A stretch of DNA of 64,000 nucleotides, taken from contig JACPSJ010000001.1 in NCBI GenBank assembly GCA_016193315.1, positions 155,981-219,980 of the forward strand, given 5' to 3'. Shown here one piece after another: positions 18,166 to 61,592 of the stretch. Below the pieces are notes generated by a model that saw only the letters and a list, made by a program, of their open reading frames with translations, had not been told where the DNA came from and did no database searches. The first letter of the stretch is position 1. Each line of letters starts with the position of its first letter. The DNA comes from Candidatus Kerfeldbacteria bacterium (GTDB taxonomy: Bacteria > Patescibacteriota > Patescibacteriia > SBBC01 > CAIJZX01). The translations under genes and the position numbers were made by a program.

Positions 18166-18576
18166 ACCGTGCCAATTTTTCATCCGTCTGCCAAAAATCT
18201 ATTGACGAGAATGACGCCAATCCTTGGGGCCGGCGCGGTCGGCGCCTGCCCGCTATGCTGGATCGGTTCAGCTTCGTTCCTAACGTATATTGGGCTGGGC
18301 GCAGTTATTCCGATATGGCGATGGATCGTCTTGACCATGTTGGGCTTGAGTATTGTTGGTTTTGCGCTGGATTACCGTTCGCATCAAACAATGTATCCAC
18401 TCATCCTGCTGGTCCTTGGCGGCACGCTTCTCTATCTTGGTCGATACACTTTTGGCGGGGCCGGCTTCACCGGATGGCAAATCTGGGTGCCAGGTGCGAT
18501 TTTCGTCATCATCGCGGTTGTCTATAATAAACGTCAATTTTCTAAACCATCACATTACCCCCATGCCCACATTTGA
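18166..18576 (+). CDS. Small 4-TM membrane protein with GACPLCW motif (MerT/MerF-like metal transporter candidate)
   Basis: 136 aa; vicinal Cys pair CPLC at first TM; directly upstream of disulfide reductase. Confidence 0.4.
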   Translation, partial: TVPIFHPSAKNLLTRMTPILGAGAVGACPLCWIGSASFLTYIGLGAVIPIWRWIVLTMLGLSIVGFALDYRSHQTMYPLILLVLGGTLLYLGRYTFGGAGFTGWQIWVPGAIFVIIAVVYNKRQFSKPSHYPHAHI

Positions 18577-19963: not shown

Positions 19964-19979
19964 AAATCCAGACTTTCCA

Positions 19980-22319: not shown

Positions 22320-22488
22320 GTGACATGCCCTTCATAAGAGCGGCGGCGCCCCGCAGAGCGGGGCACGAACCCCCTCGGGCGGCGGGCGGGCGGCCAGCAG
22401 GAAATCGACCGACCGAGAGATCGGCCGCCGACGACTTGGTCACATCCAAGAAAATACATGAACCCGCTAAACCTGCTATACTCCGTGA

Positions 22489-37767: not shown

Positions 37768-38838
37768 TTACCTCAATTCGGATGGGTTGGCCATGTAGGC
37801 CAGCGCGGTCTCCTCACTGATCATCCCGTCGAGGTAGAGTTTCTTGATGTTCTGGTCCATGGTGAACATCCCATCCTCGGCGCTGGTTTGGATGGCGGTC
37901 TTGACTTGGGCGATTTTGTTTTCGCGGATCAAGTTGGCGATGGCCGGGGTGTTGATGAGAACCTCGCGAGCGGCCAGGCGTCCGCCGCGAGACGATTGCA
38001 TCAGCTGTTGCGAAATGATGCCGCGCAGGAAGAGCGAGATCTGCAGTCGGACCTGGGATTGTTGATACGGCGGGAAGACATCAATAATCCGGTCGACCGT
38101 TTGGGCAGCGTTGAGCGTGTGCAGGGTGGCCAACACCAGGTGGCCGGTTTCGGCCAGGGTGATGGTCGAGGCGATCGTCTCGAGGTCGCGCATCTCGCCG
38201 ACCAGAATGACGTTTGGATCCTGCCGCAGAACGTGTTTCAACCCTTGGGCAAAGCTCATGATGTCCATACCGAGTTGCCGTTGCTTGATGATGGCTTTCT
38301 TCGGGCTGTAGAGGAACTCGATGGGGTCTTCGAGGGTGACGATGTGGACCGAGCGTTCGTGGTTGATAAGGTTGATCATCGCCGCCAGGGTGGTTGATTT
38401 TCCCATGCCGGTCGGACCGGTGACCAGTACCAAGCCCTGCTTCAGCCGACACAGATCGTAGGTGATCGGTGGCATCCCGAGCTCCTCCATGGTGGGGATC
38501 TTGTTGCTGATCACCCGGGCTACCAGGCCGGCGTTGTTCTTCTCCCAATGGAGGTTAACGCGAAAACGCGAGAGGCCATGAATTTCATACCCCAAATCGA
38601 GCTCGCGCTCGGTATCGAATACTTCCCGCTGCTGGTCCGTCAGCATACTATAGCAGATGTCGAGCGTGTCGCGGCCGGTCAGCGGTCGATAGTCCTTGAG
38701 CGGGCGGAGTTCGCCGTTAATCCGGAGGATTGGCGGCAAGCCCTCAACGATGTGGACGTCAGAAGCGGCGTGGTCAACGCCGATCCGGAAGATGGTATCA
38801 ATGAATTTTTCGCTGGCCACCATGGCGTGCGTGTCCAC
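37768..38838 (-). CDS. pilT: Type IV pilus twitching-motility ATPase PilT
   Basis: Walker A GPTGMGKST, Asp box, His box, PilT signature AIANLIRENK. Confidence 0.85.
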   Translation of the reverse strand: MDTHAMVASEKFIDTIFRIGVDHAASDVHIVEGLPPILRINGELRPLKDYRPLTGRDTLDICYSMLTDQQREVFDTERELDLGYEIHGLSRFRVNLHWEKNNAGLVARVISNKIPTMEELGMPPITYDLCRLKQGLVLVTGPTGMGKSTTLAAMINLINHERSVHIVTLEDPIEFLYSPKKAIIKQRQLGMDIMSFAQGLKHVLRQDPNVILVGEMRDLETIASTITLAETGHLVLATLHTLNAAQTVDRIIDVFPPYQQSQVRLQISLFLRGIISQQLMQSSRGGRLAAREVLINTPAIANLIRENKIAQVKTAIQTSAEDGMFTMDQNIKKLYLDGMISEETALAYMANPSELR

Positions 38839-48755: not shown

Positions 48756-48828
48756 GGTGGCTATGGTGTAGCGGTAGCACAGGGGCTTGTGGAGCCCTTA
48801 GCACCGGTTCAAATCCGGTTAGCCACCC
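48756..48828 (+). tRNA. tRNA-His (anticodon GTG) with extra 5' G(-1)
   Basis: Acceptor GGTGGCT/AGCCACC, D-loop TAGCGGTAG, anticodon loop TTGTGGA, T-arm ACCGG-TTCAAAT-CCGGT. Confidence 0.8.
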
Positions 48829-49154
48829 CAAAGGTGGTAACCACCGGCCTGGGTATTGAGCCTCTATCTCGGGGTCGCGATCACTACCGATGGCGACGGG
48901 CGAGGACGGTTGCCGGTGGCAACCGTCCGCAGCCCAGGCCCGAAGGGCGAATCCCGATGGTCACCCCATGCCCTCATAGCGAAATGGGTCTCGGCCGCAT
49001 CGAGCCAGGCGAGATAGCGAGCCAAACTACTTGGCTCGCGGCGGCCGGGACGGGCCGAGCATGTTTCGACCCCGAGCCTGCCGAGGGGGAGGAACGGCGA
49101 GGCCCCGGAACACAGCGACTTCGCCAGATAGGCGGCACGTCTTCCTCTGTCTTT

Positions 49155-49226
49155 GCCCTCGTAGCACAAAGGACAGTGCAAGGGACTTCTAAGCCCGAGA
49201 TGATGGTTCGATTCCATCCGAGGGCA
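49155..49226 (+). tRNA. Possible tRNA-Arg (anticodon TCT) with imperfect anticodon stem (may be pseudo-tRNA)
   Basis: 72 nt: acceptor GCCCTCG/CGAGGGC, D-arm GCAC-AAAGGACA-GTGC, loop CTTCTAA, T-arm GATGG-TTCGATT-CCATC; anticodon stem only 3 WC pairs. Confidence 0.35.
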
Positions 49227-49291
49227 GAGACATTGGCGGACGCATAGGCGTTCTAAGCCTTGAGGTGTAGGTTCGAATCCTACCGGGGGCA
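49227..49291 (+). pseudogene. tRNA 3'-half-like fragment (anticodon-arm AGGC-GTTCTAA-GCCT, T-arm GTAGG-TTCGAAT-CCTAC, acceptor-3' CGGGGGC) without matching 5' half
   Basis: Hand folding; directly abuts previous tRNA-like gene. Confidence 0.3.
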
Positions 49292-49416: not shown

Positions 49417-50286
49417 ATGAACGTGATCCGCCTGTCGAATGGGTATGAGTTTGAGTACGTCGCCGCCAGCGGCGCGCTCGGCTTCGACGGCCAAGGCTGG
49501 CCGTGGGAGCAGCCGCTCCGGGTACTCGGACTATTCGATCCGTCGCTCTTCAAGCCGGTGACGAAAAGCCTGACCTGGAAACCGCGCCGTGGCAACCTCC
49601 GGTGGCACGACCCGTTCCGGGCGGTCAGGTTCATCGATGGCGGCGTGGTCAATGCAGTTGATCTCACCAACCTAGGTTTCGACTGGTGGCTGGAAACCGT
49701 CGGACGCCGACTCGAGAGTGGCCGGCAGTCGCTGATCGTCTCGATCTACACCGAGGACGAAACCGAGTTGCGCCAGATGGCTGAGCGGTTAAACGATATC
49801 GACCTTGCCGCAGTCGAGCTCAACGCGCACTGTCCCAATCATCATGGCGATTTCCACCATAACGCCTGGCAGGTCGTCTGGTTCTGCGAACTCTACCGTC
49901 GGTTGTGCCGTCATCCGTTGATCCTCAAGGTCTCGGTCCTCCACAACTTGAACCTGATCGTCCCGAAGGCCGAACCATACATTGAGGCGATTGACATCAA
50001 CTCGGTCCCCTGGTCATACGTGTTCCCCCACCGCAGCCCCCTCCGGCGATTGGGTGGGGGAGCCGTCTCCGGCCAACCCGCGCAGGCGGTGACCTGGTCG
50101 ATCTTGCGGCAACTCGTCAACTTGACCGATATCCCGGTCATCGGCCCGAGCGTCTGGCGCTACCAGGATATCCAAGCACTCCGCGGGCGCGGCGCCCAGG
50201 CCATCAGCTTCGGCTCGATCTTCCTCCGTTACCCGTGGCGGCCGACGATCTTCGTCCGGCGTGATCAGCGGGAGAACGGACGATGA
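49417..50286 (+). CDS. Dihydroorotate-dehydrogenase-family TIM-barrel protein (PyrD-like)
   Basis: Start at ATG 49417 after GGAGG; DHOD-like motifs VELNAHCPN and N-terminal substrate-loop pattern; followed by hairpin terminator CCACCAGTCGCAAGCTGGTGG+T5. Confidence 0.6.
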   Translation: MNVIRLSNGYEFEYVAASGALGFDGQGWPWEQPLRVLGLFDPSLFKPVTKSLTWKPRRGNLRWHDPFRAVRFIDGGVVNAVDLTNLGFDWWLETVGRRLESGRQSLIVSIYTEDETELRQMAERLNDIDLAAVELNAHCPNHHGDFHHNAWQVVWFCELYRRLCRHPLILKVSVLHNLNLIVPKAEPYIEAIDINSVPWSYVFPHRSPLRRLGGGAVSGQPAQAVTWSILRQLVNLTDIPVIGPSVWRYQDIQALRGRGAQAISFGSIFLRYPWRPTIFVRRDQRENGR

Positions 50287-50330
50287 GGCCCCGAATACAT
50301 CGGTTGTTGTCCCTTCCACGGCCGGCGGGA

Positions 50331-50376
50331 CCTGTCGGCCAAGTGGCGATCTTTGACTCGCATCCACCAGTCGCAA
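50331..50376 (+). terminator. Rho-independent terminator of pyrD-like gene (CCACCAGTCGCAAGCTGGTGG + CTTTTT), immediately followed by first TTGACA of the minigene array
   Basis: Hairpin plus T-tract read directly. Confidence 0.6.
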
Positions 50377-53300
50377 GCTGGTGGCTTTTTCTGTTCACAT
50401 GGCGTTTGACAATGAACGAATGATTCGCTTGAATGGCGGGGCTGCGCCTAGCCCCGGATGGGTGCTGTTCCGCGTCCAAGTCCACGTCTCGGTCTGGCAA
50501 GGCATTCTTTGGGGCCCCGCGCCATTCAAGGTGCGGGGCGTTTTCTTGACATCAATCCATCCGGGTGGTTCTCTGTGACAGCGGTGACTAGGTTTGGCGC
50601 GCCGTCGAAGTCATGTCCGGCCACAGCCAAGCAATCGCAGCGTTCTCTCCGGAGCCCCGATGATGAAATCGGGGCTGTTTCTTGACATTCTCGAAATCCT
50701 TCTGTACATTGCTGTCGCTCACCTGGCAGGGTTTCCACCCGTTGACCACGCTCCGCAACGTTGGCGACAGCCACGACGACGTGCGGCCGGGACCGCTATT
50801 CTTTGGGGCCCCGATCAATCTGTCGGGGCTGTTTTTCTTGACAGACCGTCAGGTGTCATGTAAAAAAGTCTTCATCTTCGGTCAGCGCTGTCGCTTGGAT
50901 CGCCAACCTTGCGTCGGGCGCGCTGCGCCTAAGCCGACAGTGCCCAGCCTAGCTCCTCTCTGGATCCCGATCACTCACCTGGTCGGGATGTTTTTCTTGA
51001 CTAGCCCACGTACTCGTGGTACATAGCTGTCGATTGTATCCATTGCGGATGGGTGCGGACAGGTAGCCCGCGGCATAACAGGCCCAGCCAAGCCCGGGTC
51101 AGCCATTGTGGTCTTTGGGTCCCGATCTGACAACAGGTCGGGACATCTTTTTATTGACACGGGAACAGCCTAACGATATAGTACGGCGAACTCGGTTAGG
51201 TCCGGCTGCCTATGCCATGCTTCGCCCAAGCAAGCACCGGCCCCGCATCGACCGCCGTGCCAAGCCGTTCTCCGGATCCTCCGTCTCTGACGGAGGATAT
51301 TTCTTGACATGAAACTGTTCTCTTGTTAAAGCGGGGCTGGCTCCTTGCCCAGGTCAGGTGACGCCAGTTGCGCCGGGCTCAGCTGTCCCGGTACAGCCAA
51401 CGGCCAGCATTGCCGCCGCCAGCACAGGCATGTCTATCTTTCCTTCGGGTCCCGATCGCGCTAGATCGGGACTCTTCGCTTGACTTTTTTAAAAACTTTA
51501 GTATAAAATTATTGCGTTTCTCGCGGCTGTGTTCGCCCGGCCGAGCTAAGGAGTTGACAGCTCCGGCACGCTGCTGAACGGTAGGCTCCTCTTTGGGCCC
51601 CGCATCATTCTCGGAATGGCGTGGGGCTGTTTTCTTGACAACCATTGCTCGGACAGGTACTTTCCACTGCGCTCCGCGCGACGGGACATTTTCTTGACAA
51701 ACAGGCCGGGGTGTCCTAGGTTGTCTCGCGAACCACCTGGCCCGCCTGCGCGAGACAGGCAGCGCCGACGCAGGGTACTGATTGACTGGCCGTGGTGTAC
51801 TTGCGAGTTCTATGGGGCCCCGTCTGGTATTACCGAGCGGGGCCGTTTTTTTGACGAACCAAGACGAAACGAATATAGTGTTCGAGTCGTTTTCCGGCCA
51901 GGCCTGGTTGGGATAGCCACCCCATCCAGCGCCATGCCTCCCCGTGTCAGGGATAGGCCAGCACCTCTCCGGGCCCCGATCACGTTGATCGGGACTGTTT
52001 TCTTGACAGGGTGTGTATTTGCTCCTACCCTTAGCCAACGCCCCACGCCGACCTAGTCTGACGACAGCAAGGGTCAAGCAGACTATCACGCCGCAGGCCA
52101 CTTCAGGCTCCGGGTCCCGATCTGACAACAGGCCGGGACTTTTTTCTTGACAACTTTTGATATTGCACCTATCGTCTCGCCAGACAGTATTGCCGTACGG
52201 CACTGTTCGTCTAGCAACGGCACCGCTTCCCAACGAAGACCTAGCTAGCCTACGGGTCCCGGTCTGAAAACAGGTCGGGACGTTTTATTGACGAAAAAGG
52301 GATAAACAACTAAGGTGTCGAAGTTCTATCCGGCCAGGTACGCCGGGCACAGGCGGCCAGCGGAAAGCCACCGTCAGCCCCCGCTCGCCAACGTCCGTCG
52401 CGCTCCGCACAGCCCGTCTCTGGGTCCTCCGCCTCTGGCGGAGGACGTTTTTCTTGACGCGAATGGGAAGTCGGTGATACGGTGCGCCTTGCGTTGGCAA
52501 AACCCGGCTGACCATCGTTGGGCATCGTATGTTCCTCACCGCCGGACAAGCGCGTCAAACGCCAGGCAACTCTTTGGGTCCCGATTCTCACGACTCGGGA
52601 CTATTTATTGACACAGATTATTAACTCGAGTAGGCTCGCGGGAGTATCACGGCTGGGCGATACTTCCAACGCACCCGCATCCCGATCAGTGTCATGCTCC
52701 TCTGTGGGTCCCGGCCGCTATACGTTGCCGGGACATTTTCTTGACGCGCATACACCATTTTGCTAGTTTGCGCATTGGATTGGCTGGCCATGTTAAGGTC
52801 GGGCCCGACAGAGTGCCGCCAGCTGCGCAAGAGCATGCCCTACTATGGGTCCCGGTTCTGATGAATCGGGACTTTTTCTTGACATGCGCTCAATCCTCGC
52901 TTAGGGTGAAACGCGCCTCATGCAGTCCAGGCGAGGTCCGCTTTGGCTGAGTAAGGCATGAATGGCCTAGGTGCGGTTGGCTGCTCTACGGGTCCCGATT
53001 CTCACGACTCGGGACATTTTCTCGACACGACTTTTTCGATAATGTACTTTCTGACAACTTGGCCCGCCGGGCATTGGATGAGTAGGCCATGGCATCCTTC
53101 GGTCCACTTCGGGGCTCCCGCAAACACGGGAGCCGATTTTTTCTTGACTCTTGTTGGTTGATCAAGTAACTTGCCTATCGTCAAGTTTCACGGCTCGGTG
53201 AGGATAGCTCCGCACTGCCTAGCCGGAGCGCCGTCAGGTGACGTTCGCTTGGGATAGCTTTGGAGGCGGGACGCCAGTCTCGCCTTTTTGCTTGACAAGT

Positions 53301-53575
53301 TTCGATCGCAACCCTAAAGTTTCAGCTCTCGCCTCGCTCCGGTTCTGTGTGACAGGGCCAAGTACCGCAGCACGAACCTCTCTTTGGGGCTCCCCCATCA
53401 TGATGGGAGCCTTTTGTTTGACAATCTCATCCGGTAGGGTCTAAGTTCACACAGTACGCAGGGCCTCGGATAGCCGCGGAGCCCATTTCCTTCCCGTGTT
53501 TCGGCTAGGCCAGCCGTTCTAAGGGTCCCGACTTCATCGGTCGGGACTTATTCTTGCTTGACAAAATTGTGCATC
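50340..53575 (+). repeat. Array part 1: ~23 tandem promoter-body-terminator minigene units (~135-175 bp each). Unit = TTGACA -35 / 17 bp / TAnnnT -10 in variable region, ~70-100-nt variable GC-rich body, conserved tail (..CCTAGG..TCTTTGGG + GC hairpin of conserved structure but variable/covarying sequence + T4-6) directly abutting next TTGACA
   Basis: Read directly: -35 boxes at 50406, 50546, 50681, 50838, 50996, 51164, 51304, 51479, 51645, 51693, 51850, 52003, 52147, 52287, 52453, 52608, 52741, 52878, 53021, 53144, 53292, 53427, 53568; each followed at 17+-1 bp by TAnnnT (TACATT, TAAAAA, TACATA, TATAGT, TAAAGC, TATAAA, TATCGT, TAAGGT..). Confidence 0.7.
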
Positions 53576-53684
53576 TCCGTTAAGGCTGGTGTACGCTCCT
53601 TCCAATCCATCACTGGACTATCGGATCCGAAGGCGCGCTTCGTCCACGCTGTTTGCCTCTTCACCACATCTTTGGAGGCTCACC

Positions 53685-55532
53685 GTGAAGCGTCAGAAGC
53701 CGCGGCCACCATTGCCGCGCAAGCTCAACCTGCTGGAGTATTTTCCGTACCATCTGTACCCAGTCATGCGACCGAATCAGCGGCTTGGTCTCGAGACTAT
53801 TGAGGCCAACGACGGATTGGCGACCCTCGAAGCGCCGACCGGCAGCGGCAAGATGGCCATCGGCTACACCTTCCTCAAGGCGCTGGCCGCTCAGCGCCTG
53901 GGGCCGCTGTTCTACATCGTGCCGACGAAGACGCAGGTCGACCAACTCGTCCGGTACCACCCGGATCTCATCCCGGTCTACGGGCGGAACGAGCACGACT
54001 GTCTGTATTACCCGGACCTGTCGCTGAAGGCGGATGAAATTCCAACCGTCCTCTGCCCAGGCTGCGATCACTTCGTCAACCAGGAGACCGGCGCCGTCAA
54101 CGTACCCGGCGTCGTGCCCTGTCCGTACTACCTCCAGAAGTACCAGGCGAAGCAGGCGCCGATCGTCGTCTGCACCATGGCCTTCTACCTCTTCACCCAG
54201 CTCTTCTCGCAGGAGTGGGAGGAGCCGGCCGGCCTGGTCATCGATGAAGCGCACCAGTTCCCCCGGGTCGTCCGTAACTGCCTCAGCTACGAGATTACCG
54301 ACTACCACTTGTGGCGGTCGGCCGACCTCTTGGCGGAGATCGACGGCGTCGCCGCGCACCAACTGCGGGACTTCGGCCGGAAGATGATTTCGATCATCAA
54401 GCGGAAGCCAGCCGGGCAGGGAACGCTGCTCAAGGACGAGGAGATCATTCAGCTTATCGAGCTGCTCGACGTCATCGACGCCGGGGCGGTCGAACGCGCC
54501 CTCAGCCGGGCCATTCGGCAGGGGCTGATCGACGTCAAGCAGGACCGCGAGACGTTGAAGCAGCTGGAGACGATCGTTCGCGACCTGCGGCGGTACCTCC
54601 ACACCCTCGAGTACTCGCTGCCGACGAAGCAGCGGCACGCCCTGAACTACACCTACGGCTTCTACGAGGAGGAGATGGGGCCGAACGACAAGGCTCAGTA
54701 CCGTCTGGTCATCAAGGCGCACTACGTCGCGCCGATTATCGCCAAGATCCTGAGCCCGCGGACGGTGGCGTATTCGGCCACCATCGGCGATCCGCCGATC
54801 TTCCAGGGCGAGACGGGTATCCGCGCCGACGTCTTCGAGTTCGGTTCGGAATTCTCTCATCTGAAGACGCGGGTGTTCATGCCGACGGACACTAAGAACC
54901 TGGCCTTCAACACCCGGGGTCGACAGGATGTTACCCGGACGCTGCGGCTGGTGGCCAAAGCGGCCCGTCGCTTCGCCCAACGGGGTCACCGCTCTCTGGT
55001 GGTGATCGTGTCGGAGAAGGAGCGGCAGAAGTTCTTGACCCTGGCCGAGGAGGAGCGGCTGAAGGTCCTGAGCTACGGGAATGGGTCACCCGCTAAGACA
55101 GTGGCAGCCCGGTTTCTTGGCGGTGAAGGAGATTGCCTGGTCGGCACCACCGCCCAGTACGGCGAGGGGATCGATTTGCCACGGCAGTCGGCGCCGGTCA
55201 TCTTTATGCTCCGGCCTGGCTACCCGCATCCGGACGATCCGGGCACGCAGTTCGAGGAGCGGCGCTTCAGCACCGGGCAGGTCTGGGCCATCCGCCAGTG
55301 GCGGGTGATGATGGAAGCGCTCCAGGTGCGGGGCCGGAACATCCGTTCCAGCGACGACCTCGGCGTAACCTTCTTCATGTCCCAGCAGTTCCGGAAGTTC
55401 CTGCGCAGCAGCCTGCCGAAGTGGCTCGAGCGGGCCTACCGCAACACCCGCACCTTTGACCAGTGCGTCGAGGAGACGATGGAGTTGTTGAGCCGAGGCG
55501 ATCGAGGTCTGACGGCTGGAATACAGCAGTGA
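53685..55532 (+). CDS. DinG/XPD/Rad3-family superfamily-2 DNA helicase with FeS-cluster cysteines (type IV CRISPR Csf4-like size)
   Basis: Start GTG 53685 after GGAGG; Walker A-like TGSGKM, DEAH box (VIDEAHQF), four Cys (HDCLYY, CPGCDHF, CPYY) in FeS insertion, C-terminal helicase motifs (GTTAQYGEGIDLP); expressed from the -35/-10 of the last array-1 unit and terminated by first array-2 hairpin. Confidence 0.8.
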   Translation: MKRQKPRPPLPRKLNLLEYFPYHLYPVMRPNQRLGLETIEANDGLATLEAPTGSGKMAIGYTFLKALAAQRLGPLFYIVPTKTQVDQLVRYHPDLIPVYGRNEHDCLYYPDLSLKADEIPTVLCPGCDHFVNQETGAVNVPGVVPCPYYLQKYQAKQAPIVVCTMAFYLFTQLFSQEWEEPAGLVIDEAHQFPRVVRNCLSYEITDYHLWRSADLLAEIDGVAAHQLRDFGRKMISIIKRKPAGQGTLLKDEEIIQLIELLDVIDAGAVERALSRAIRQGLIDVKQDRETLKQLETIVRDLRRYLHTLEYSLPTKQRHALNYTYGFYEEEMGPNDKAQYRLVIKAHYVAPIIAKILSPRTVAYSATIGDPPIFQGETGIRADVFEFGSEFSHLKTRVFMPTDTKNLAFNTRGRQDVTRTLRLVAKAARRFAQRGHRSLVVIVSEKERQKFLTLAEEERLKVLSYGNGSPAKTVAARFLGGEGDCLVGTTAQYGEGIDLPRQSAPVIFMLRPGYPHPDDPGTQFEERRFSTGQVWAIRQWRVMMEALQVRGRNIRSSDDLGVTFFMSQQFRKFLRSSLPKWLERAYRNTRTFDQCVEETMELLSRGDRGLTAGIQQ

Positions 55533-55559
55533 ACAACGAATAGGCAAAACCTGGGTTAC

Positions 55560-58500
55560 CAAGTGTAGGCAACCCCCAGGCAAGAAAGAGTGCTCTCTGG
55601 GACCCCCGATCGAATGATCGGGGGTCGTTTTCTTGACAGGTGTTGAGCTTATCATTAACCTGCAGCCGCTAGCTACGGACCGGCTAGGAACGGTGGGCCA
55701 CGTTTTGGCTGAGTCCGGACGGCCGGACCCAGGTCGCCTAGAGTGTTCTATGGGGCCCCGATCATTTGGTCGGGGTCGTTTTTTGACTTCCTCCAAGGTT
55801 GGGTGTAGGGTCTTCCAATCCGCCAGCCTTCGGCAGGTAACGGTAGTTCTGGGTAGCCAGTCCTGTGGCACGGGCTCCAACGCGCGGATGGGATCGCCTT
55901 GGTTTTGCATGGTTTGTCTCGCTCCGGGTCCTCCGCCTTTGGTGGAGGACTTCTTTCTTGACATAAAGCAACCAAGCGAGTAGGAAGTTGATACCGGAGT
56001 GGTACGCGCCGCCCCGGAAAGCTAGGCTCTTTGGCGGTATGCCACGCTGGCCTGCACTGCGGGACCTCATTCGGAAGAATGAGGTCGTTTTTCTTGACAT
56101 GCCCACGAAATAATTCTAGTGTGCGAGCGCCGCGCCTAGGAATTCTTTGGAGCCCCGTTCGCAAGAACGGGGCTGCTTTCTTGACACGACCTATTTTTTC
56201 CTGTAAGACCTTTTGCACCCGGTGCTGAATCCAATGCACTGGTGCGCCATCGCGCGGCAGCCGCATCAATCGGCACGCTGGGCTACGCTTCGGGACGGTG
56301 ACTCACCATGGTCGCCGTCTTTTTTCTTGACACGACGAATGCAATGCAATAGGCTTGCCCAGCAGTATTCCCGCTGCGGACAGCCATGACCCGCACCGTT
56401 CCGCTAGGCTGCGGTCAGCCGTTCTTTGGAGCTCCGTTCGCAAGAATGGGGTCAATTTCTTGACAAACTGCCTGATTCAGTTAGCCTACCCAATCACCAG
56501 AAGTCCCATCCTCAGCCTTGGTGTCCCGTGACAACCATCGCTATGGTTGGGCCTGGTCCGGAGGGCCGTCCTTTGGAGCCCCGTTCGTCAGAGCGGGGCT
56601 TTTTCTTGACTGCCGTTATTACTTTTGATAGGGTCGGCCGACACGCCTAGGCTTGCCTTGGTTAACCAAGCACCGCCGTCGTCGGCCACCCCAGCGCCAT
56701 CTTCGGAGCCCCTGATCATTCGATCGGGGGCGTTTTTCTTGACTCTCGCTGGATCATCCTGTACAACGTCCAAACCAGGTGTGCCTGACCTGCCAGGACC
56801 ATGCCTGTGTGGGCCTTGGAATGCACGGCCATACTCTGGGGCCAGCTCGTCTTTACGCGAGTTGGCCTACTTCTTGACAGCGTGAAAGCATTACTCTAGT
56901 TTTCAGCCATTCCATGCGCCTCGGATAGCTGCGCTATCGCGCGATGCGTAGCGGAACGGACTGGTGGAGTAGTCATTGGTTCTCTGTGGGGTCCCATCAG
57001 TCGGTGGGGGCTTCTTCTTGACTGAACGAAAAATACGCTGATAGATTCTGTCGACCCGCCAGGGAAAGCAAAGCCGCGGAATTCCTCGGATCGCCGCGCC
57101 TCGCCTGCCTGTGCCATGACAGCCTGATCTTCGGTGCCTCATCCATCCGGGTGGGGCATGTTTCATGACATCCCCTGGGGAGAGAGAATAATCTTGGTTG
57201 TCCACGCGCCTCGGAAAGCTTTCCTAATGGCGATACGTAATTGAACTGATTTCGTGGTTGTAAGTGGCTATCCTTGGTTTCCCGACGTAATGTGGGGCTT
57301 TCTCCTTGACCAGAACACTCAATTGTCTGTAATTTTCCAATCCTCGGAAAACCATGGTCCGGCGGGCCTGTCTCTGCCTGCGTCAGCCTCGCTCTTCCAG
57401 GCTTAGCCTCGCTTTGGGTCCTCCGTCGCTGACGGAGGACATTTTCTATTGCGATTGCTTGACAAATCCGGGGATGACGATTAGGTTGCCGACACTAGGC
57501 TGGCCCGGCTTTCCTAGGGCAAGTCGGCCTGTCCCGGAGCATCCGGCGGACAGCTCAGCATAGCCATTCTTTGGATCCCACGCAACCGCGGTGGGACTTT
57601 TCTTGACTTTCCGAGGGCCCCGTTCTAAAGTGCCGCGGCTGGATCAAGGCTCGGATAGGCCTCCTTGGCCCCGCAAAGCCTAGGAACCTCTGGCCGCGGA
57701 CGGCCCCGGACAGGATCTCCCTCCCGTTCTTTGGGTCCCCATCAGCCATGGTGGGGATGCTTTCTTGACCGACGAAAATGGATTTGCTAGTTTCTTGCGG
57801 CCATATGGTTAGGCCGGGAACGGCGGCCATCGGTGTTCCAAGCACCGCCTTGGCCAGGCTCGCCTTGCTCCACTTCGGGACCCTGCAGAAATGCGGGGTC
57901 ATTTTCTTGACCTTCTGAAGTTCGAAGCTTATGTCCGTCTGACGTGGTATGGTCGGCTTGGCTAGCGCTGCGTGTCCCTCGCCAGACTCCCCATCGCCAT
58001 CCCTGCTCTAGGCGTCGTGTTCTCCGGAGCCCCGTTCGAAAGAGCGGGGCTGCTTTCTTGACATCGCCCACACCGGGATGTACGGTCGAATGACGCGATG
58101 ATGAACTGTGCCAAGCCAGTCATCGGCCCGCCAGCGCGAGACGCCCCGCCCTTTGCTGCGCAATGCCTCCGCTCTCTATGGGGTCCGTTCGGCAGAACGG
58201 ATCTGTTTCTTGACAGCGTGTGAATTTGGCCGTAGATTTTTTTTGCTTAGGCCGTGGTTCATGATTGTCTTTGTAAGCGGAAACCAGCCCAGGCTAGGTG
58301 TCCCCAGCACTGGCATGGTCGGCTTGCAAGTGGCCAACCACGCCCTGGATGTCTACGGGCCCAGCCCGTGTTTCTGAATCATGACGGGCTGGGCTTTTTT
58401 CATGAGCTTCATCCGGGAACGCAATCTACTGACAAACCAACACGGTTCGGCTAATTTGTCTTGGCATCAGGCGGTTTTTTCGTCAGCCTTAGTGTCGCGT

Positions 58501-59060
58501 GATAACCATCGGTCTGGTTGGGTCTGTTCCGGAGGGCTGTACTTCGGGGCCTCGCTCCACATGAGCGAGGCTGCTTCTTGACGCTAAGTTCATCTCATGA
58601 TAAACACCCGGTCGTCGCAGTCGGCGCCTTGAAACTCATAGTACTCCCGGAACGCCAGCGATCGCCGCAGTGCGGAATTCCAGACCACCGCATCCCCAGC
58701 CGCCGCACGCTCCGTCAGACTTTGGGCCCGACCGCGCAAGCGCGTCGGGCATTTTTCTTGACTAGTTTCATGCTCTGTAGTAGGTTCGTCGGTGTCCGCC
58801 ATGCCCACGCCAGTTTCGGAATGGTATCCTCCCGCCAGTCGCGGCAGTCTGTGGCCCGCTCTGGAGTCCCGATGGTAACACCGCCTTGGGACTTTTCTTG
58901 ACGCCCTGCTCATTCGTTGATAAGAGTATGATGGTTCTGAAATTGATTTCTCGGAATCGACCCGGCAGGCCCAGGATTCCCGAGTCTCGCCATCCCAGCC
59001 ACACCCCAGCTCCTCTTCGGGGCCCCGCCAGCCATCGCGGGGCCATCTTCTTGACAAAAC
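55560..59060 (+). repeat. Array part 2: ~24 further promoter-body-terminator minigene units of the same family
   Basis: -35 boxes at 55633, 55782, 55959, 56095, 56181, 56328, 56460, 56605, 56739, 56873, 57018, 57165 (ATGACA), 57306, 57459, 57603, 57764, 57906, 58058, 58209, ~58398 (degenerate), 58578, 58758, 58898, 59050; same TCTTTGG-hairpin-Tn tails. Confidence 0.7.
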
Positions 59061-59166
59061 CAGGGCGGTTTTGCTAAGGTCGCGGATCGCCTTTTGTTTG
59101 GGCGAACCTGGCTACGCAGGACGCGTGGCAGCTGTACCATCCAATTCTTTGGAAAGGGGCCACCCA

Positions 59167-59811
59167 ATGGCCAACAAGCGGAAGCGCGTCACCGTCCGGT
59201 GCGTCGGGATCGAGCCGATCCTCTTCAACGCCATTCCCGAAGGCCTGCTCATGGACCTGCTGAAGGGCAAGAGCCGGCCGAAGGTGAAGGGCGACGACGT
59301 CGACCTCGACAAGATCTGCGAGGACAAGCTCTACGTCGACGACGACGGCACGCCGTGCATCCCGCGGCTGAACATGTTCGCCGCCCTGAAGTACGCCGGC
59401 AAGTTCGTCAAGGCCGGCAAGAAGAACATCACCGGTGGTGACTCGACCCAGCTGCCGTCGATCCTGACGGTCGAGGGAACGCTGTTCCGTCTCGACAACG
59501 GGACGGCGAACGGCAAGCCGGAGTGGAAGATGGATCTCCGCGCCGGCCGTCACCGCCAGGGCACCTCGAAGGTCATGGTCGCCCTCGTTCGGCCCCGCTT
59601 CGACCGCTGGGGCTTCACCGCCACGGTCTCCTGCGCCGACGACGACGCCACGATCAAGACGGTCAAGCAGCTGTTCTGGGAGGCCGGCGACAAGGCTGGT
59701 CTCGGCGACTACCGCCCCTCGTCGGGCGGCTTCTACGGCCGCTTCCGGCCGGTGGGCTTCACCGTCGAGGACATGGTCGAGGAGACCGAGTTCGCGGCGG
59801 CCGTGGCCTAG
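59167..59811 (+). CDS. Basic ~214-aa protein, paralog A (array-associated); C-terminal glycine-rich loop GLGDYRPSSGGFYGRF reminiscent of RAMP (Cas5/Cas6-type) G-rich loops - tentative
   Basis: ATG 59167 after AAAGGGG; driven by last array promoter (TTGACA 59050); N-terminus RKRVTVRCVGIEPILFN shared with paralog B. Confidence 0.55.
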   Translation: MANKRKRVTVRCVGIEPILFNAIPEGLLMDLLKGKSRPKVKGDDVDLDKICEDKLYVDDDGTPCIPRLNMFAALKYAGKFVKAGKKNITGGDSTQLPSILTVEGTLFRLDNGTANGKPEWKMDLRAGRHRQGTSKVMVALVRPRFDRWGFTATVSCADDDATIKTVKQLFWEAGDKAGLGDYRPSSGGFYGRFRPVGFTVEDMVEETEFAAAVA

Positions 59812-59893
59812 CCGCTGTACGGTCGTTTCCTTTCGGGACGGCGGGACGCGAAGCGTCCCGCCGCCGCTTCACCTACGGATCGGAGGAACTGCC

Positions 59894-60532
59894 ATGCTGC
59901 GGATTCACGTCCGATGTGTCGGCCTCGCCCCGCTATTGATGAACCGGCCCGACCAGCAAGCGCTGGTCGAGTGCGTCGCCGGCAACGGCCGCTCGTCCCG
60001 TTCGGACCAGGAGGTCTTCGAGTCGAAGATCTACCGGGCGCCGGACGGACGGATCGCCCTGCCGCGGCCGATGCTCCTGGCCGTGCTGAAGAACGCCGGT
60101 CGCGAGGTCAAGCTCGGTCGCCAGAAGGTGACCACCCCCGAATCGACGCTGCTCAGCAGCCTGCTGAGCATCAAGGAGGAGTATCTCACCCTCGACGGCG
60201 GCCGGCCTGGTTCGGAGCCGCTGGTCGAGCGGGATTCCCGTCGGGCCATCCAGCGGCAGGGTCGGAAGCAGGAGCGGGTGCGGGCCGTCCGCCCGAAGAT
60301 CAAGCGGTGGGGATTCGAGGTGACGCTCTGCGTCAGTTCGCCCTCCCAGGCGCGGATCGCCCGCCAGCTGTTCGATGTCGCCGGGGCCGAGGGCTACCTC
60401 GGCGATTTCCATCCATCGTCCAAGTTTCGCAAGAAGCTCAAGGCGAACGGCTGGAAGGCTCCGTTCAATCGGTTCGCCGTGACCGAATGGGCGGTCGAGG
60501 CGGTGCTCGAGGAAGCGATGGCAGCGGTGTAG
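59894..60532 (+). CDS. Basic ~212-aa protein, paralog B (N-terminus MLRIHVRCVGLAPLLMN; shared motifs K(I/L)Y..DG, RWGF..T)
   Basis: ATG 59894 after GGAGG; ~25-30% identity to paralog A by eye. Confidence 0.55.
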   Translation: MLRIHVRCVGLAPLLMNRPDQQALVECVAGNGRSSRSDQEVFESKIYRAPDGRIALPRPMLLAVLKNAGREVKLGRQKVTTPESTLLSSLLSIKEEYLTLDGGRPGSEPLVERDSRRAIQRQGRKQERVRAVRPKIKRWGFEVTLCVSSPSQARIARQLFDVAGAEGYLGDFHPSSKFRKKLKANGWKAPFNRFAVTEWAVEAVLEEAMAAV

Positions 60533-60747
60533 ATCTGGTATTCTCGACGGCGCCGTTCTGATCAGGCCTGTCAGGGACCCGATCGCCACAACTACATGAT
60601 GTGTCCTTTGGAGCGTCAGGAGAAATTCCTGGCGCTTTCTTTTTCGCCACAACAACTTGACAGCGAGCGTCTTTTCTGCTAGGCTGCTCGGTTGGTTAGC
60701 TGTCTTGTCGCTTGTCGTCACCGTCTCTCACAGCTACGGAGGCTTCC

Positions 60748-61071
60748 ATGTACATTCCCAAGCGAATTCTGCTCATGGTCGTGCTAGCGTTGGTGCTAGT
60801 GGGTACCACGGCCTTCACCCGTGTGCGACGCGCGACTACGGTCCCGAATGTGGAGATAATCTCCCTCGGGCTGAACGCCACGTTCGCCGACGGGAAGCCG
60901 ATTACCAAGCCGATCCGACTGGCTCTCCACCGCGTCGGCACGAAGCATCTCGGCGCACAGTACGTGGTGGTGACCGGGCAGCCCGACAGGAATGGCTTTA
61001 TGACTGTTACCGCCAAGGTCCCGGTTGACCCGAAGTTTCAACCGTTGGTGCGGCTGGCGCTTCAGAGATAA
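60748..61071 (+). CDS. Small secreted/membrane-anchored protein (signal peptide)
   Basis: ATG 60748 after GGAGG; preceded by a degenerate array-type tail+promoter (TCCTTTGG-hairpin-TTTTT..CTTGACA-17-TAGGCT at ~60595-60680). Confidence 0.45.
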   Translation: MYIPKRILLMVVLALVLVGTTAFTRVRRATTVPNVEIISLGLNATFADGKPITKPIRLALHRVGTKHLGAQYVVVTGQPDRNGFMTVTAKVPVDPKFQPLVRLALQR

Positions 61072-61081
61072 TGGAGGAATC

Positions 61082-61462
61082 GTGGACCACCCAACCTATA
61101 TTTATCTTCAGCCCGGCGAGCAAAACGAGCCGCGGCGAAGGCAGCTGGAAGCCAAGCTCGAGGCCTACCGGCGTCGGGTGGCCGAAGCCGGCGACAGTCC
61201 AAGCGGAGGCGTCGAACCGTTCTGGTTTTGGAACGACCGGGCCAAGCTGATCATCCTCGAGCGGTTGCTCAGAGACGGGCGGGTCGATCGGACCGAGCTG
61301 CATCGGGAACTCTGGCTCAATCATGCTACGAACCCGATCGTCAGATACTCGCACTGGCAGTACGGCAACCCCTTCCACACCGCCTTCGACGTGATATTCG
61401 ACTACGTTGAAACCGGCGGCGCGAACGTCATGGGAGGTTCTGGCCTGCCATCACCCCAGTGA
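61082..61462 (+). CDS. Hypothetical protein (~126 aa)
   Basis: GTG 61082 after GGAGG; Trp/aromatic-rich C-terminal half. Confidence 0.4.
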   Translation: MDHPTYIYLQPGEQNEPRRRQLEAKLEAYRRRVAEAGDSPSGGVEPFWFWNDRAKLIILERLLRDGRVDRTELHRELWLNHATNPIVRYSHWQYGNPFHTAFDVIFDYVETGGANVMGGSGLPSPQ

Positions 61463-61592
61463 GCTCCGTCAGAATGCTCCTTTGCCCCAAAGCTTTGCCA
61501 GTTGTCCCGCACAACTGGTTTTTTTCAACCAGCGATCTTTGACTTTTCTCCAGGGTTGTGCTATAGTAGTAAGAGAAAACAGAAAAAACCCC

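What the first reader, a model, noticed from the sequence alone, without database searches (positions are those of the whole stretch)
50340..59060. ~47 tandem self-contained promoter-body-terminator minigenes (CRISPR-like periodic array that is not CRISPR)
Each ~145-bp unit carries a near-consensus sigma70 -35 (TTGACA) with a TAnnnT -10 exactly 17 bp downstream, a 70-100-nt non-conserved GC-rich body, and a conserved 3' tail TCTTTGGG-hairpin-T4-6. Hairpin stems differ between units but stay complementary (GGGGCCCCG/CGGGGCT, GGTCCCG/CGGGAC, CCTCCGTC/GACGGAGG, GGCTCCC/GGGAGCC), i.e. compensatory covariation that points to selection on RNA or terminator structure. The T-tract runs straight into the next -35, so units are packed head-to-tail with no intervening DNA. 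Bodies are too short and too variable to be protein genes. This predicts ~47 discrete ~90-110-nt transcripts sharing a 3' handle: an sRNA or guide-RNA library with per-unit transcription instead of pre-crRNA processing. I know of no described system with this architecture.
Basis: seen in the sequence. Interest (0 to 1): 0.95.

Follow-up and report, generated by a model that had tools for sequence, protein, structure and literature searches.

The report
VIPR guide-RNA array, CPR bacterium
The ~45 promoter-body-terminator minigenes are real and most likely genes for VIPR guide RNAs (vrRNAs), a CRISPR-like, RNA-guided DNA-recognition system first described in 2026 preprints, here as an unusually large chromosomal array next to a helicase and two Cas7-like Vipr proteins in a candidate-phyla-radiation bacterium.

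Summary
On the + strand, 45 units of about 145 bp each carry a sigma-70-type promoter, a 45-105-nt body and a YTCTYY-GG-hairpin-T-tract tail.

- The array is split by a 615-aa XPD/DinG-family helicase gene (53685-55532).
- It is followed by two paralogous ~213-aa genes (59167-59811 and 59894-60532).
- The "non-conserved" bodies carry a strict 5-nt code, G-(G/C)-(not G)-N-N, in one register with the tail. In-register pentamers match it 52% of the time, against 13% in shuffles.

The two small proteins are RAMP/Cas7-fold proteins and homologues of the SUSP1 Vipr protein. They fall in the same PHROG, hhalign gives 94% probability, and the RNA-contact residues are conserved.

Together these features match VIPR systems (Doudna lab preprints, April 2026). 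Those consist of Vipr, an accessory gene and ~100-nt vrRNAs made of YNNGG repeats plus a structured 3' tail.

Relatives in three further lineages keep the Vipr, helicase and array together. Two of them lack per-unit promoters.

No targets were found. The verdict is a new member of a known, very recent kind. The "guide-RNA library" idea is supported; "no described system" is out of date.

The parts
50406..53557 (+). vrRNA gene block 1, with 22 promoter-led units. Unit starts are 50406, 50546, 50682, 50838, 50997, 51154, 51304, 51480, 51635 (truncated), 51694, 51851, 52003, 52147, 52288, 52454, 52608, 52741, 52879, 53022 (degenerate -35), 53144, 53292 and 53418.
   Evidence: Promoter, body and tail anatomy. 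Pentamer register. Promoter and terminator excess.
57603..57764 (+). Example unit u38. -35 TTGACT at 57603-57608; -10 TAAAGT at 57626-57631; 18 in-register pentamers at 57638-57727 (13 of them G-S-H); TCTTT at 57728-57732; tail hairpin GGGTCCCCATCAGCCATGGTGGGGAT at 57733-57758; T-rich end running into the next -35.
53558..53684 (+). Promoter (TTGACA-N17-TAAGGC) and 5' leader of the helicase gene. The leader ends in TCTTTGGAGG (tail 5' motif fused to the Shine-Dalgarno sequence). Its body has 0 of 15 G-S-H pentamers, so it is not a vrRNA.
   Evidence: The leader is conserved in L001.
53685..55532 (+). Accessory gene (vap-like). A 615-aa SF2 helicase of the XPD/Rad3/DinG family, with a GSGK Walker A motif, a DEAH box and 3-4 conserved cysteines.
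   Evidence: Pfam Helicase_C_2 and DEAD_2. PADLOC typeIV_DinG 'CAS-IV-A associated' model, E 4e-43, full length. Top PDB sequence hits are XPD, E 4e-14. phrog_2488. Alignment with orthologues in L001 and L003.
55534..55632 (+). Promoterless vrRNA-like unit directly after the helicase stop codon (12 pentamers, 4 canonical, plus tail hairpin and T-tract). It probably also serves as the helicase terminator.
   Evidence: A similarly placed unit occurs in L001.
55633..59050 (+). vrRNA gene block 2, with 23 promoter-led units. Unit starts are 55633, 55783, 55958, 56094 (3 repeats only), 56181, 56327, 56460, 56606, 56739, 56874, 57018, 57165 (degenerate), 57306, 57459, 57603, 57765, 57907, 58058, 58210, 58400 (weak promoter), 58578, 58758 and 58898.
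59051..59166 (+). Promoter and 5' leader of vipr1. The leader ends in TTCTTTGGAAAGGGG just before the ATG. Its body has 4 of 12 G-S-H pentamers.
59167..59811 (+). vipr1, a 214-aa RAMP (Cas7-like) protein and Vipr homologue. It is identical to NCBI HYY50_01195 ('Candidatus Kerfeldbacteria bacterium' MAG).
   Evidence: - phrog_4652, E 1.5e-16. The same PHROG holds the SUSP1-type Vipr, E 2e-96.
- PDB profile hit to 'SUSP1 Vipr protein', E 1.6e-4, with R138/D177/W178/R179 aligned to R142/D181/Y182/R183.
- hhalign probability 94%, E 1e-7, 175 columns.
- Identity to the NCBI record.
59835..59865 (+). Tail-like hairpin (GGGACGGCGGGACGC-GAAG-GCGTCCCGCCGCC, preceded by CCTTTC) between vipr1 and vipr2. 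It has no T-tract.
59894..60532 (+). vipr2, a 212-aa paralogue of vipr1 (34% identity). Its G-loop reads GDFHP instead of GDYRP. L001 carries an equivalent second vipr gene; L003 and L012 do not.
60533..60645 (+). Degenerate, promoterless vrRNA-like element after vipr2 (CCTTT|GGAGC hairpin plus T-run; 3 of 14 canonical pentamers). Probable operon terminator.

Best explanation
The locus 50406-60645 is a chromosomal VIPR (Viral Interference Programmable Repeat) system. It has about 45 vrRNA genes, an XPD/DinG-family helicase as accessory (vap-like) gene, and two Vipr (ancestral RAMP/Cas7-like) genes.

**Shown here**
- The sequence anatomy of the units.
- The 5-nt code in register with the tail.
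- Homology and fold of the proteins.
- Conserved synteny in relatives.

**Inferred from the published SUSP1 VIPR work and from the anatomy**
1. Each unit is transcribed from its own sigma-70-type promoter. It is terminated at its own tail hairpin plus U-tract, giving a ~90-150-nt RNA (median ~110 nt).
2. Vipr protomers polymerise along the body, one per pentamer (9-21 per RNA). They sequester G-(G/C)-(not G) and present the two variable bases.
3. The hairpin caps the 3' end. It plays the role of the SUSP1 pseudoknot tail and here also acts as the intrinsic terminator.
4. The filament reads double-stranded DNA through the NN dinucleotides, with one target base skipped per repeat.
5. The helicase is then recruited to the bound site to unwind or clear it, by analogy with CasDinG in type IV-A CRISPR. 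The result is silencing of, or interference with, the target, most likely phages or other mobile elements of this bacterium.

The roles of the second paralogue (cap subunit or heteromeric filament) and of the tail-motif-bearing mRNA leaders (possible autoregulation) are speculation.
For: **Proteins**
- Both small proteins match phrog_4652 over its full length. This is the family of the Felixounavirus/SUSP1-type Vipr.
- A profile of the family hits the PDB chain 'SUSP1 Vipr protein'. The aligned residues include those reported to bind G1, G2 and Y3 (paper section read).
- hhalign gives 94% probability over 175 columns.

**RNA units**
- Period-5 power of G is 0.76 against a background of ~0.2. 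Coding DNA from the same window shows period 3 instead.
- Anchored on the tail, all units share one register out to about -85. Position 1 is G ~65%, position 2 is G or C ~90%, position 3 is G <=5% (9% at one position), and positions 4-5 are unconstrained.
- 342 of 653 in-register pentamers are G-S-H, against 3-13% in the other four registers and 13.3+-1.2% in shuffles. All 16 NN dinucleotides are used.
- Body segments of 10 units show no marked secondary structure (z-scores -2.9 to +0.7, mean about -0.85).
- The tail hairpins covary.
- Size (~110 nt) and two-part layout match the published vrRNAs.

**Synteny**
- Vipr, the same helicase family and hairpin-capped pentamer arrays are also kept together in L001/L009, L003/L007 and L012, with Vipr identity to the window from 61% down to 33%.
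- In the paralogous pair u30/u43, NN positions differ at 1 of 24 sites but scaffold positions at 8 of 36. This fits NN being the selected information.
Against: - No transcript, RNP or target data exist for this locus.
- The repeat consensus is G-(G/C)-H-N-N, not the GGY-NN of the characterised type II systems. Only about half of the in-register pentamers are canonical.
- The tail is a simple hairpin, not a pseudoknot.
- The direct sequence link to SUSP1 Vipr is modest (E 1.6e-4 over 58 residues; hhalign E 1e-7).
- No target was found with the 1-nt-skip rule. In the window, L001 and L003 the best matches equal shuffled controls and stay below the 80% NN criterion. There were 0 exact hits for u38 in metagenome contigs and for u39, u14, u38, u6 and u34 in viral contigs.
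- The skip rule may differ in this clade, and exact-match scans are insensitive.
- Which of the seven published VIPR types this belongs to could not be checked, because no supplementary data are held.
Confidence: 0.85

Rival explanations
1. An unconventional CRISPR-Cas locus (type IV-like: Cas7/Csf2-like proteins plus a DinG helicase). Under this reading the hairpin tails are degenerate CRISPR repeats and the bodies are contiguous spacers acquired from invaders.
For: - The helicase hits a PADLOC 'typeIV_DinG, CAS-IV-A associated' model at E 4e-43.
- Relatives L003 and L012 have co-transcribed hairpin-plus-variable-segment arrays that look CRISPR-like.
Against: - TRF finds no tandem repeat.
- The 'repeats' differ in 43 of 45 copies and covary rather than being copied.
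- Segment lengths vary from 45 to 105 nt.
- The bodies carry a 5-nt scaffold that spacers captured from foreign DNA would not have.
- No Cas1, Cas2, Cas5, Cas6 or Cas8-like hit was found among the 16 neighbouring ORFs tested.
- The canonical Csf4 model matches only weakly (E 1.9e-5). The best solved relatives are XPD, not CasDinG.
- The small proteins group with Vipr by sequence.
Confidence: 0.03
2. A battery of ordinary trans-acting antisense or regulatory sRNA genes (or RNA decoys) that happen to sit beside the RAMP and helicase genes. They would act by contiguous base-pairing with mRNAs, independently of Vipr.
For: - Each unit is a complete promoter-RNA-terminator gene.
- There is no Rfam family hit.
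- Two mRNA leaders in the locus share the TCTTTGG motif.
Against: - A strict pentamer scaffold in phase with the tail is not a property of antisense sRNAs.
- No contiguous complementarity to the other 55 kb of the window is better than chance.
- The RNA array and the vipr and helicase genes are kept together in three further lineages, with Vipr identity down to 33%.
Confidence: 0.05
3. It is a VIPR system mechanistically, but its guides are not directed at phages. They would regulate chromosomal genes of the CPR bacterium itself or DNA of its host organism (domesticated transcription control), or the system belongs to an integrated element and serves that element.
For: - Published VIPRs act by transcriptional repression and are mostly encoded on mobile elements.
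- tRNA genes lie 1.2 kb upstream and an integrase ~7 kb downstream.
- L001 has an integrase and an AcrVA2-like gene next to its locus.
- No viral target was found.
Against: - No self-target was found in the 64-kb window at or near the 80% NN criterion, though only ~7% of the 857-kb contig was available.
- The published helicase- or nuclease-bearing chromosomal types are reported to target viruses.
- The failed target search is weak evidence either way.
Confidence: 0.2
4. A non-functional satellite: a decaying tandem amplification of a promoter-terminator cassette.
For: - Some units are truncated or degenerate (51635, 56094, 57165).
- Tails fall into a few subfamilies, which suggests duplication.
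Against: - The bodies are unique rather than degenerate copies of one sequence. Only one pair shares body similarity.
- Promoters, the register, hairpin complementarity and T-tracts are maintained in ~40 units despite body divergence.
Confidence: 0.02

Closest known systems
VIPR systems, type II (Escherichia phage SUSP1 / Felixounavirus, P. fulva prophage); bioRxiv 10.64898/2026.04.26.720920 and 10.64898/2026.04.26.720927
   Same: - A ~20-kDa single-RRM RAMP protein of the same PHROG, with conserved G-loop and thumb RNA-contact residues.
- ~100-nt RNAs built of pentanucleotide repeats (three scaffold plus two variable bases), followed by a conserved structured 3' tail.
- RNA genes flank the protein genes.
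- No CRISPR array or adaptation genes.
- In the Alf5 copy of the SUSP1-type locus, each vrRNA also ends in a hairpin plus T5 and is preceded by a conserved ~35-nt element. Unit-wise transcription may therefore be shared.
   Different: - Scaffold is G-(G/C)-H rather than GGY, with about half of the repeats degenerate.
- Simple covarying hairpin tail that doubles as an intrinsic terminator, instead of an invariant pseudoknot.
- Consensus sigma-70 promoter per unit.
- About 45 guides, against 4 in SUSP1.
- Two Vipr paralogues.
- The accessory gene is an XPD/DinG-family helicase, not a small DNA-binding protein.
- Located on a cellular (CPR/Patescibacteria) chromosome, not a phage.
VIPR types III-V (accessory nucleases or helicases; partly in defence islands on prokaryotic chromosomes), same preprint
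   Same: Chromosomal location, an enzymatic accessory gene (helicases are mentioned), variant repeat consensus and variable array architecture are all reported for these types.
   Different: The text held gives no locus-level description, and no supplementary data are held. It therefore cannot be said which type this is. Nor can it be said whether a 45-unit array with one promoter and terminator per guide, a two-Vipr operon or a CPR host has been described. The architectures named in the paper are staggered, hammerhead-interspersed and single-vrRNA.
Type IV-A CRISPR-Cas (Csf2/Cas7 filament plus CasDinG/Csf4 helicase)
   Same: A RAMP filament on a guide RNA with a 3' hairpin, paired with an SF2 DinG-family helicase and no nuclease. 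It probably binds DNA and interferes without cutting. The helicase matches a PADLOC type-IV-associated DinG model.
   Different: - No CRISPR repeats, Cas6, Cas5 or Csf1.
- The guides are gapped pentamer codes, not contiguous spacers.
- The helicase keeps 3-4 cysteines in the XPD-type Fe-S position, and its nearest solved relatives are XPD, not CasDinG. That CasDinG has only a vestigial Fe-S domain is from my own knowledge, not tested here.
Type III Csm3 / type VII Cas7 backbone subunits
   Different: No sequence-level membership, 10-17% identity, no Cas10, Csm or Cas14 partners, and a different guide architecture.

Membership tests
VIPR system | Encodes a Vipr protein: a small single-RRM RAMP with G-loop and thumb, homologous to the SUSP1/X1U2U4 family | tested here: met
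   - phrog_4652 is shared with the SUSP1-type Vipr.
- PDB 'SUSP1 Vipr protein', E 1.6e-4, with R138/D177/W178/R179 aligned to R142/D181/Y182/R183.
- hhalign 94%, E 1e-7.
- The family has 3245 50%-identity cluster representatives at E<1e-3.
VIPR system | vrRNAs made of tandem pentanucleotide repeats with conserved scaffold bases alternating with hypervariable NN (YNNGG or a related consensus; at least 4 repeats) | tested here: met
   - One register in all units: G, G/C, not-G, N, N.
- 342 of 653 in-register pentamers are canonical, against 13% in shuffles.
- 9-21 pentamers per unit.
- The consensus is a variant (G-S-H, not GGY).
VIPR system | Repeat tract followed by a conserved, structured 3' tail | tested here: met
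   YTCTYY-GG(G/A)NC plus an 8-12-bp hairpin in 45 of 45 units, with covariation. It is a hairpin, not the pseudoknot of the SUSP1 clade.
VIPR system | Minimal locus: vipr plus an accessory (vap) gene, flanked by the RNA genes, with no CRISPR array or cas adaptation genes | tested here: met
   - The helicase gene lies inside the array and the two vipr genes at its end.
- TRF finds no repeat array.
- No cas-type adaptation or processing hit (Cas1, Cas2, Cas5, Cas6, Cas8) among 16 neighbouring ORFs tested against PADLOC; the helicase gave only weak partial Cas3 matches.
- The rest of the genome was not available.
VIPR system | vrRNAs are expressed as ~100-nt RNAs and co-purify with Vipr | not testable with these tools
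   Only predicted: promoters and terminators are in excess, and the predicted median length is 110 nt.
VIPR system | NN dinucleotides specify dsDNA targets under the 1-nt-skip rule (natural targets with >=80% NN match) | tested here: inconclusive
   No match above shuffled controls in the window, L001 or L003. No exact hits for five guides in the viral collection or one guide in the metagenome collection. Mismatch-tolerant searches of large databases were not possible.
CRISPR-Cas (type IV-A) | CRISPR array of near-identical direct repeats separated by contiguous spacers of uniform length | tested here: not met
   TRF finds nothing. There are 43 distinct hairpin arms in 45 units. Bodies are 45-105 nt with an internal 5-nt scaffold.
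CRISPR-Cas (type IV-A) | Csf1/Cas8-like, Csf3/Cas5 and Cas6/Csf5 subunits, and CasDinG (Csf4) | tested here: not met
   There are no PADLOC, Pfam or NCBIfam hits for the small proteins or neighbouring ORFs. The helicase hits the Csf4_0_IVA model only at E 1.9e-5, though it hits an 'associated' DinG model at 4e-43. The nearest solved relatives are XPD.
Known RNA family (Rfam) | Match to a curated covariance model at gathering score | tested here: not met
   Only four tRNAs were found in the window and nothing in the array. Gathering threshold only; the E-value mode was not run.

The most novel reading that the evidence does not exclude
This locus may represent a distinct, more elaborate VIPR lineage of CPR/Patescibacteria. 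Its features would be:
- Two diverged RAMP paralogues forming a differentiated effector, for example a filament subunit plus a tail-cap subunit.
- An Fe-S XPD/DinG-type helicase as the executing enzyme.
- A relaxed G-S-H scaffold code.
- Guide genes that have each acquired a housekeeping promoter, with the tail converted into an intrinsic terminator. This would allow a 45-guide library without any RNA processing.

Such a system would be an evolutionary intermediate between minimal phage VIPRs and multi-subunit class 1 effectors, type IV (Csf2 plus DinG) in particular. It would also be the main programmable defence or regulation system of an organism with a <1-Mb genome that devotes ~1% of it to guides.
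Probability: 0.25. Interest if true: 0.8.

Novelty: new member of a known kind. Interest (0 to 1): 0.5.

Why it matters
VIPR was described only months before the date of the libraries used here, and it was characterised in phage type II systems with a handful of guides.

This locus shows the same logic on a cellular chromosome of an ultra-small CPR bacterium, scaled to about 45 guides. The features that stand out are:
- Each guide has a textbook promoter and a tail that doubles as a terminator.
- The guides are coupled to an XPD/DinG-type helicase and a duplicated Vipr.
- Because every guide is its own transcription unit, boundaries, register and code can be read straight from the DNA. This gives a clean natural data set of ~650 pentamers for the variant G-S-H code.
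- Relatives with co-transcribed arrays show that guide biogenesis has changed within one clade.
- The helicase link offers a concrete handle on the proposed VIPR-to-CRISPR (type IV-like) transition.

If the targets can be found, the guides would report which phages or elements, or which host genes, matter to an uncultivated episymbiont.

Tried and rejected
**Searches that found nothing**
- tRNA scan (ARAGORN) and Rfam at gathering threshold: nothing in the array.
- Tandem Repeats Finder: no tandem repeat.
- Megablast of the whole interval against GenBank phages: no match.
- Contiguous (antisense-type) matches of units to the rest of the window: only chance-level 12-14-mers.
- Search for further units elsewhere in the window with a tail PWM plus folding: only weak, hairpin-less hits outside 50406-60645.
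- PADLOC on 10 upstream ORFs: no cas genes and only a weak mad8 hit.
- Supplementary tables of the VIPR preprint, to assign a type or find this accession: not held.

**Searches that returned few or no relatives**
- Helicase relatives in viral contigs: none.
- Genome-contig scan with the Vipr alignment: returned only the L003 contig.
- Metagenome-contig scan with the Vipr alignment: returned five loci (L009-L013); L009 duplicates L001 and L012 was the only informative new locus.

**Target searches under the 1-nt-skip rule**
- Local search of the window, L001 and L003: no better than shuffled guides.
- Six exact-pattern scans of public collections: zero hits. Exact matching is insensitive, and I had no positive control for my pattern construction.

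**Ideas considered and dropped**
- Small peptides encoded in the bodies. There are no consistent start or stop codons, and the periodicity is 5, not 3.
- Structured RNA in the bodies. The z-scores are unremarkable.
- A phage origin of the window. Several PHROG hits pointed that way, but the protein is on an 857-kb contig named as a Kerfeldbacteria MAG, and the relatives' neighbours are cellular genes.

Full report
**Observation**

Reading 49800-60000 and locating T-run+TTGAC sites confirms a + strand series of units of about 130-180 bp. Each unit has four parts:
- TTGAC(A) as the -35.
- A TAnnnT-like -10, 16-18 nt downstream.
- A variable body.
- A tail of YTCTYY-GG(G/A)NC, a strong hairpin and a T-rich run that abuts the next -35.

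The statistics support this:
- TTGAC-N17-19-TAnnnT (16-18-nt spacer) occurs 32 times in the locus. The other ~54 kb holds 7 on the + strand and 5 on the - strand.
- A stricter consensus scan gives 12 promoter-like sites (2.7+-1.7 expected) and 35 terminator-like sites (10.2+-3.5 expected). All terminator-like sites and 10 of the 12 promoter-like sites are on the + strand.
- All 45 tails fold into hairpins with 43 different 5' arms.
- Stem positions 3, 7, 8, 9 and 10 each use three to five Watson-Crick or wobble pair types while remaining 84-100% paired.
- Four independent assemblies from other runs are 99.99-100% identical across 50933-64000, so this is not an assembly artefact.

Some details need correcting:
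- There are 45 promoter-led RNA units (22 + 23), not 47. Two of the promoters drive protein genes.
- The interval contains a 1.85-kb gene.
- A few units are truncated or degenerate.

The array is interrupted at 53685-55532 by a 615-aa SF2 helicase. The evidence is:
- Pfam Helicase_C_2 and DEAD_2.
- A PADLOC 'typeIV_DinG, CAS-IV-A associated' model at E 4e-43 over its full length, but the Csf4 model only at 1.9e-5.
- Partial NCBIfam matches to DinG, Rad3 and YoaA.
- The best solved relatives are XPD.
- GSGK and DEAH motifs and 3-4 conserved cysteines.

Directly after the last unit lie two paralogous genes of 214 and 212 aa (59167-59811 and 59894-60532). Neither has a Pfam, PADLOC or NCBIfam hit. 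Both match phrog_4652 end to end.

An AlphaFold model of the first (pLDDT 68.8, pTM 0.69) has only CRISPR RAMPs as its best structural neighbours:
- Foldseek: E ~1e-6 to Csm3 and type VII Cas7.

**The link to VIPR**

A profile of the small-protein family hits one solved chain, 'SUSP1 Vipr protein' (36pp_D, E 1.6e-4). That led to two 2026 preprints.

Those preprints describe VIPR systems as follows:
- A ~20-kDa ancestral RAMP (Vipr).
- An accessory gene (vap). In types III-V it encodes nucleases or helicases.
- ~100-nt vrRNAs made of 9-16 YNNGG repeats, followed by a conserved structured 3' tail.
- One Vipr protomer binds each repeat, hides GGY and presents NN.
- The filament reads dsDNA with one target base skipped per repeat and represses transcription.

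I tested the defining features one by one.

1. *Protein.*
   - The Felixounavirus (Alf5) copy of the SUSP1-type Vipr belongs to phrog_4652 (E 2e-96), the family hit by both window proteins.
   - hhalign of the window family against it gives 94% probability, E 1e-7, over 175 columns.
   - The published RNA-contact residues R138, D177, W178 and R179 align with R142, D181, Y182 and R183. R142 and D181 are invariant in the window family.
2. *RNA code.*
   - The unit bodies show strong 5-nt periodicity. G power is 0.76 and G+C power 0.97, against ~0.2 at other periods. Random segments of the same window, which are mostly coding, peak at period 3.
   - Anchored on the tail GG, all units share a single register back to about -85. 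Position 1 is G in ~65%, position 2 is G or C in ~90%, position 3 is almost never G, and positions 4-5 are unconstrained.
   - 342 of 653 in-register pentamers fit G-S-H. The other registers give 3-13%, and shuffles give 13.3+-1.2%.
   - Units hold 9-21 pentamers.
3. *Tail.* It is conserved and structured, as described above.
4. *Locus.* It holds vipr plus an accessory gene, with RNA genes flanking them. There is no tandem-repeat array and no cas-type adaptation or processing hit in 16 neighbouring ORFs; the helicase itself gives only weak partial Cas3 matches.

Body segments of 10 units have no marked secondary structure (mean z about -0.85), as expected for a protein-coated guide. Expression, RNP formation and targeting could not be tested.

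**Relatives**

The first small protein is identical to NCBI HYY50_01195 from a 'Candidatus Kerfeldbacteria bacterium' MAG, on an 857-kb contig. Neighbours of homologous loci are cellular genes: ComEC, NDK, RelA/SpoT and GroEL. The host is therefore a CPR/Patescibacteria-type bacterium, not a phage, despite several PHROG hits in the window.

The helicase, Vipr and arrays travel together in three further lineages.

| Locus | Vipr identity to window | Vipr genes | Units | Own promoters / T-tracts | In-register G-S-H vs other registers |
|---|---|---|---|---|---|
| L001/L009 | 61% | 2 | 6 | Yes (TTGAC promoters and T-tracts) | 32% vs 4-15% |
| L003/L007 | 35% | 1 | 16 | No; apparently co-transcribed with vipr and the helicase | 30% vs 1-12% |
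| L012 | 33% | 1 | at least 11 | No; co-transcribed downstream of the helicase | 42% vs 4-12% |

The conserved element is therefore the pentamer tract plus the hairpin cap. The one-promoter-one-terminator-per-guide arrangement and the expansion to 45 guides are features of the window's lineage.

In the Alf5 copy of the type II locus, each vrRNA also ends in a hairpin plus T5 and is preceded by a conserved ~35-nt element. Unit-wise transcription may not be unique to this clade. That is an inference from sequence only.

**Mechanism proposed**

The steps below are inferred, not shown.
1. Each unit is transcribed from its own promoter and terminated at its tail, giving RNAs with a median length of ~110 nt.
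2. Vipr polymerises one protomer per pentamer.
3. The hairpin caps the 3' end.
4. The NN positions (18-42 specified bases per guide) read dsDNA.
5. The XPD/DinG-type helicase acts on the bound site, by analogy with CasDinG.

One observation fits NN being the selected information. The only clearly paralogous pair of guides (u30 and u43) differs at 1 of 24 NN positions but at 8 of 36 scaffold positions. The sample is small.

The function of the second paralogue (G-loop GDFHP) is open. So is the function of the TCTTTGG motif in the helicase and vipr1 mRNA leaders.

**Targets**

Using the published NNx rule, no guide matches the window, L001 or L003 better than shuffled guides. The best matches are ~65% of NN positions, below the 80% criterion. 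Exact-pattern scans for five guides in viral contigs and one guide in metagenome contigs found nothing. This is weak negative evidence for three reasons:
- The scans tolerate no mismatch at canonical repeats.
- CPR phages are poorly sampled.
- The rule may differ for a G-S-H scaffold.

**Comparison and verdict**

The locus meets every VIPR criterion that can be tested in silico, and it fails the defining features of a CRISPR array. It is best filed as a VIPR system with a helicase accessory gene.

The preprint mentions helicase-bearing types, variant repeat consensus, variable array architecture and chromosomal loci. Its seed proteins include entries whose accessions (A0A1F4...) look to me like groundwater CPR-type genomes, which I did not check. 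The class is therefore known.

Several features are not described in the text available to me, and no supplements are held:
- A 45-guide array with a consensus promoter and an intrinsic terminator per guide.
- The two-Vipr operon.
- The G-S-H code.

I therefore rate it a new member of a known kind, with a moderate chance (~0.25) that it is a distinct, more elaborate lineage bearing on the VIPR-to-class-1 (type IV-like) transition.

Its claim of no precedent is superseded.

Noticed in passing
window 53558-53684 and 59051-59166; L001 7545-7660: The 5' leaders of the helicase and vipr1 mRNAs end in the vrRNA tail 5' motif fused to the ribosome-binding site (TCTTTGGAGG..GTG and TTCTTTGGAAAGGGG..ATG). 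The L001 helicase leader has its own genome's version (TCATCGGAGG). The genes may have been inserted into former units, or Vipr may bind its own mRNAs (autoregulation).
   Followed up: partly
window 55534-55632, 59835-59865, 60533-60645: Tail-like hairpins also close each protein gene. A promoterless 12-pentamer unit follows the helicase, a bare tail hairpin follows vipr1, and a degenerate unit with a T-run follows vipr2. The last lies outside the reported coordinates.
   Followed up: yes
window 56460-56605 (u30) and 58400-58577 (u43): This is the only pair of units with body similarity (80% over 93 nt). Over the last 12 pentamers, NN positions differ at 1 of 24 sites and scaffold positions at 8 of 36. 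This suggests two guides kept for the same or a similar target.
   Followed up: partly
window 51635-51693 and 56094-56180: Two stunted units. One is a promoter followed only by a tail remnant. The other has just three pentamers before a normal tail. They may be deletion products or very short guides.
   Followed up: no
window 48757-49227; L015 8816-9787 (about 3 kb beyond the window end); L001 2789-6148: tRNA-His and tRNA-Arg lie 1.2 kb upstream of the array. A phage-type integrase lies ~7 kb downstream of vipr2. The L001 locus has an integrase and an AcrVA2-like gene just upstream. The VIPR locus may sit on an integrative island. GC content does not differ from the surroundings.
   Followed up: partly
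L003 4284-4966 and 6756-7958; L012 2040-3330 (- strand): Distant relatives carry arrays of 11-16 hairpin-capped pentamer units. The hairpins read GGGGCAGAG-TGAAAGA-CTCTGCC with covarying stems. There are no promoters or T-tracts between units, which implies an unidentified processing activity. No ribozyme or Cas6-like gene was looked for.
   Followed up: partly
L008 1800-2060 and 3150-3450 (Escherichia phage Alf5, SUSP1-type VIPR): Each type II vrRNA (GGYNN x ~12) ends in a hairpin plus T5. Each is preceded by a conserved AAAAGGTCTTTAAnnGGGTCTTTTAA element, possibly a phage promoter. Per-guide transcription units may be common in VIPR.
   Followed up: no
window 53985-54140: The helicase keeps three invariant cysteines (C106, C127, C146) and a fourth nearby between the Walker A and DEAH motifs, across orthologues of 49-62% identity. 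This fits an XPD-type Fe-S domain.
   Followed up: partly
window 18353-23742 and 28491-31016: Several large ORFs have PHROG hits (RNR large subunit, dehydrogenase fusion, helicase, kinase-like), although the contig is cellular. These are probably ordinary housekeeping genes shared with phage families.
   Followed up: no
window 37768-38838 (- strand): Weak PADLOC hit to mad8 (methylation-associated defence), E 1e-6, over a short stretch.
   Followed up: no
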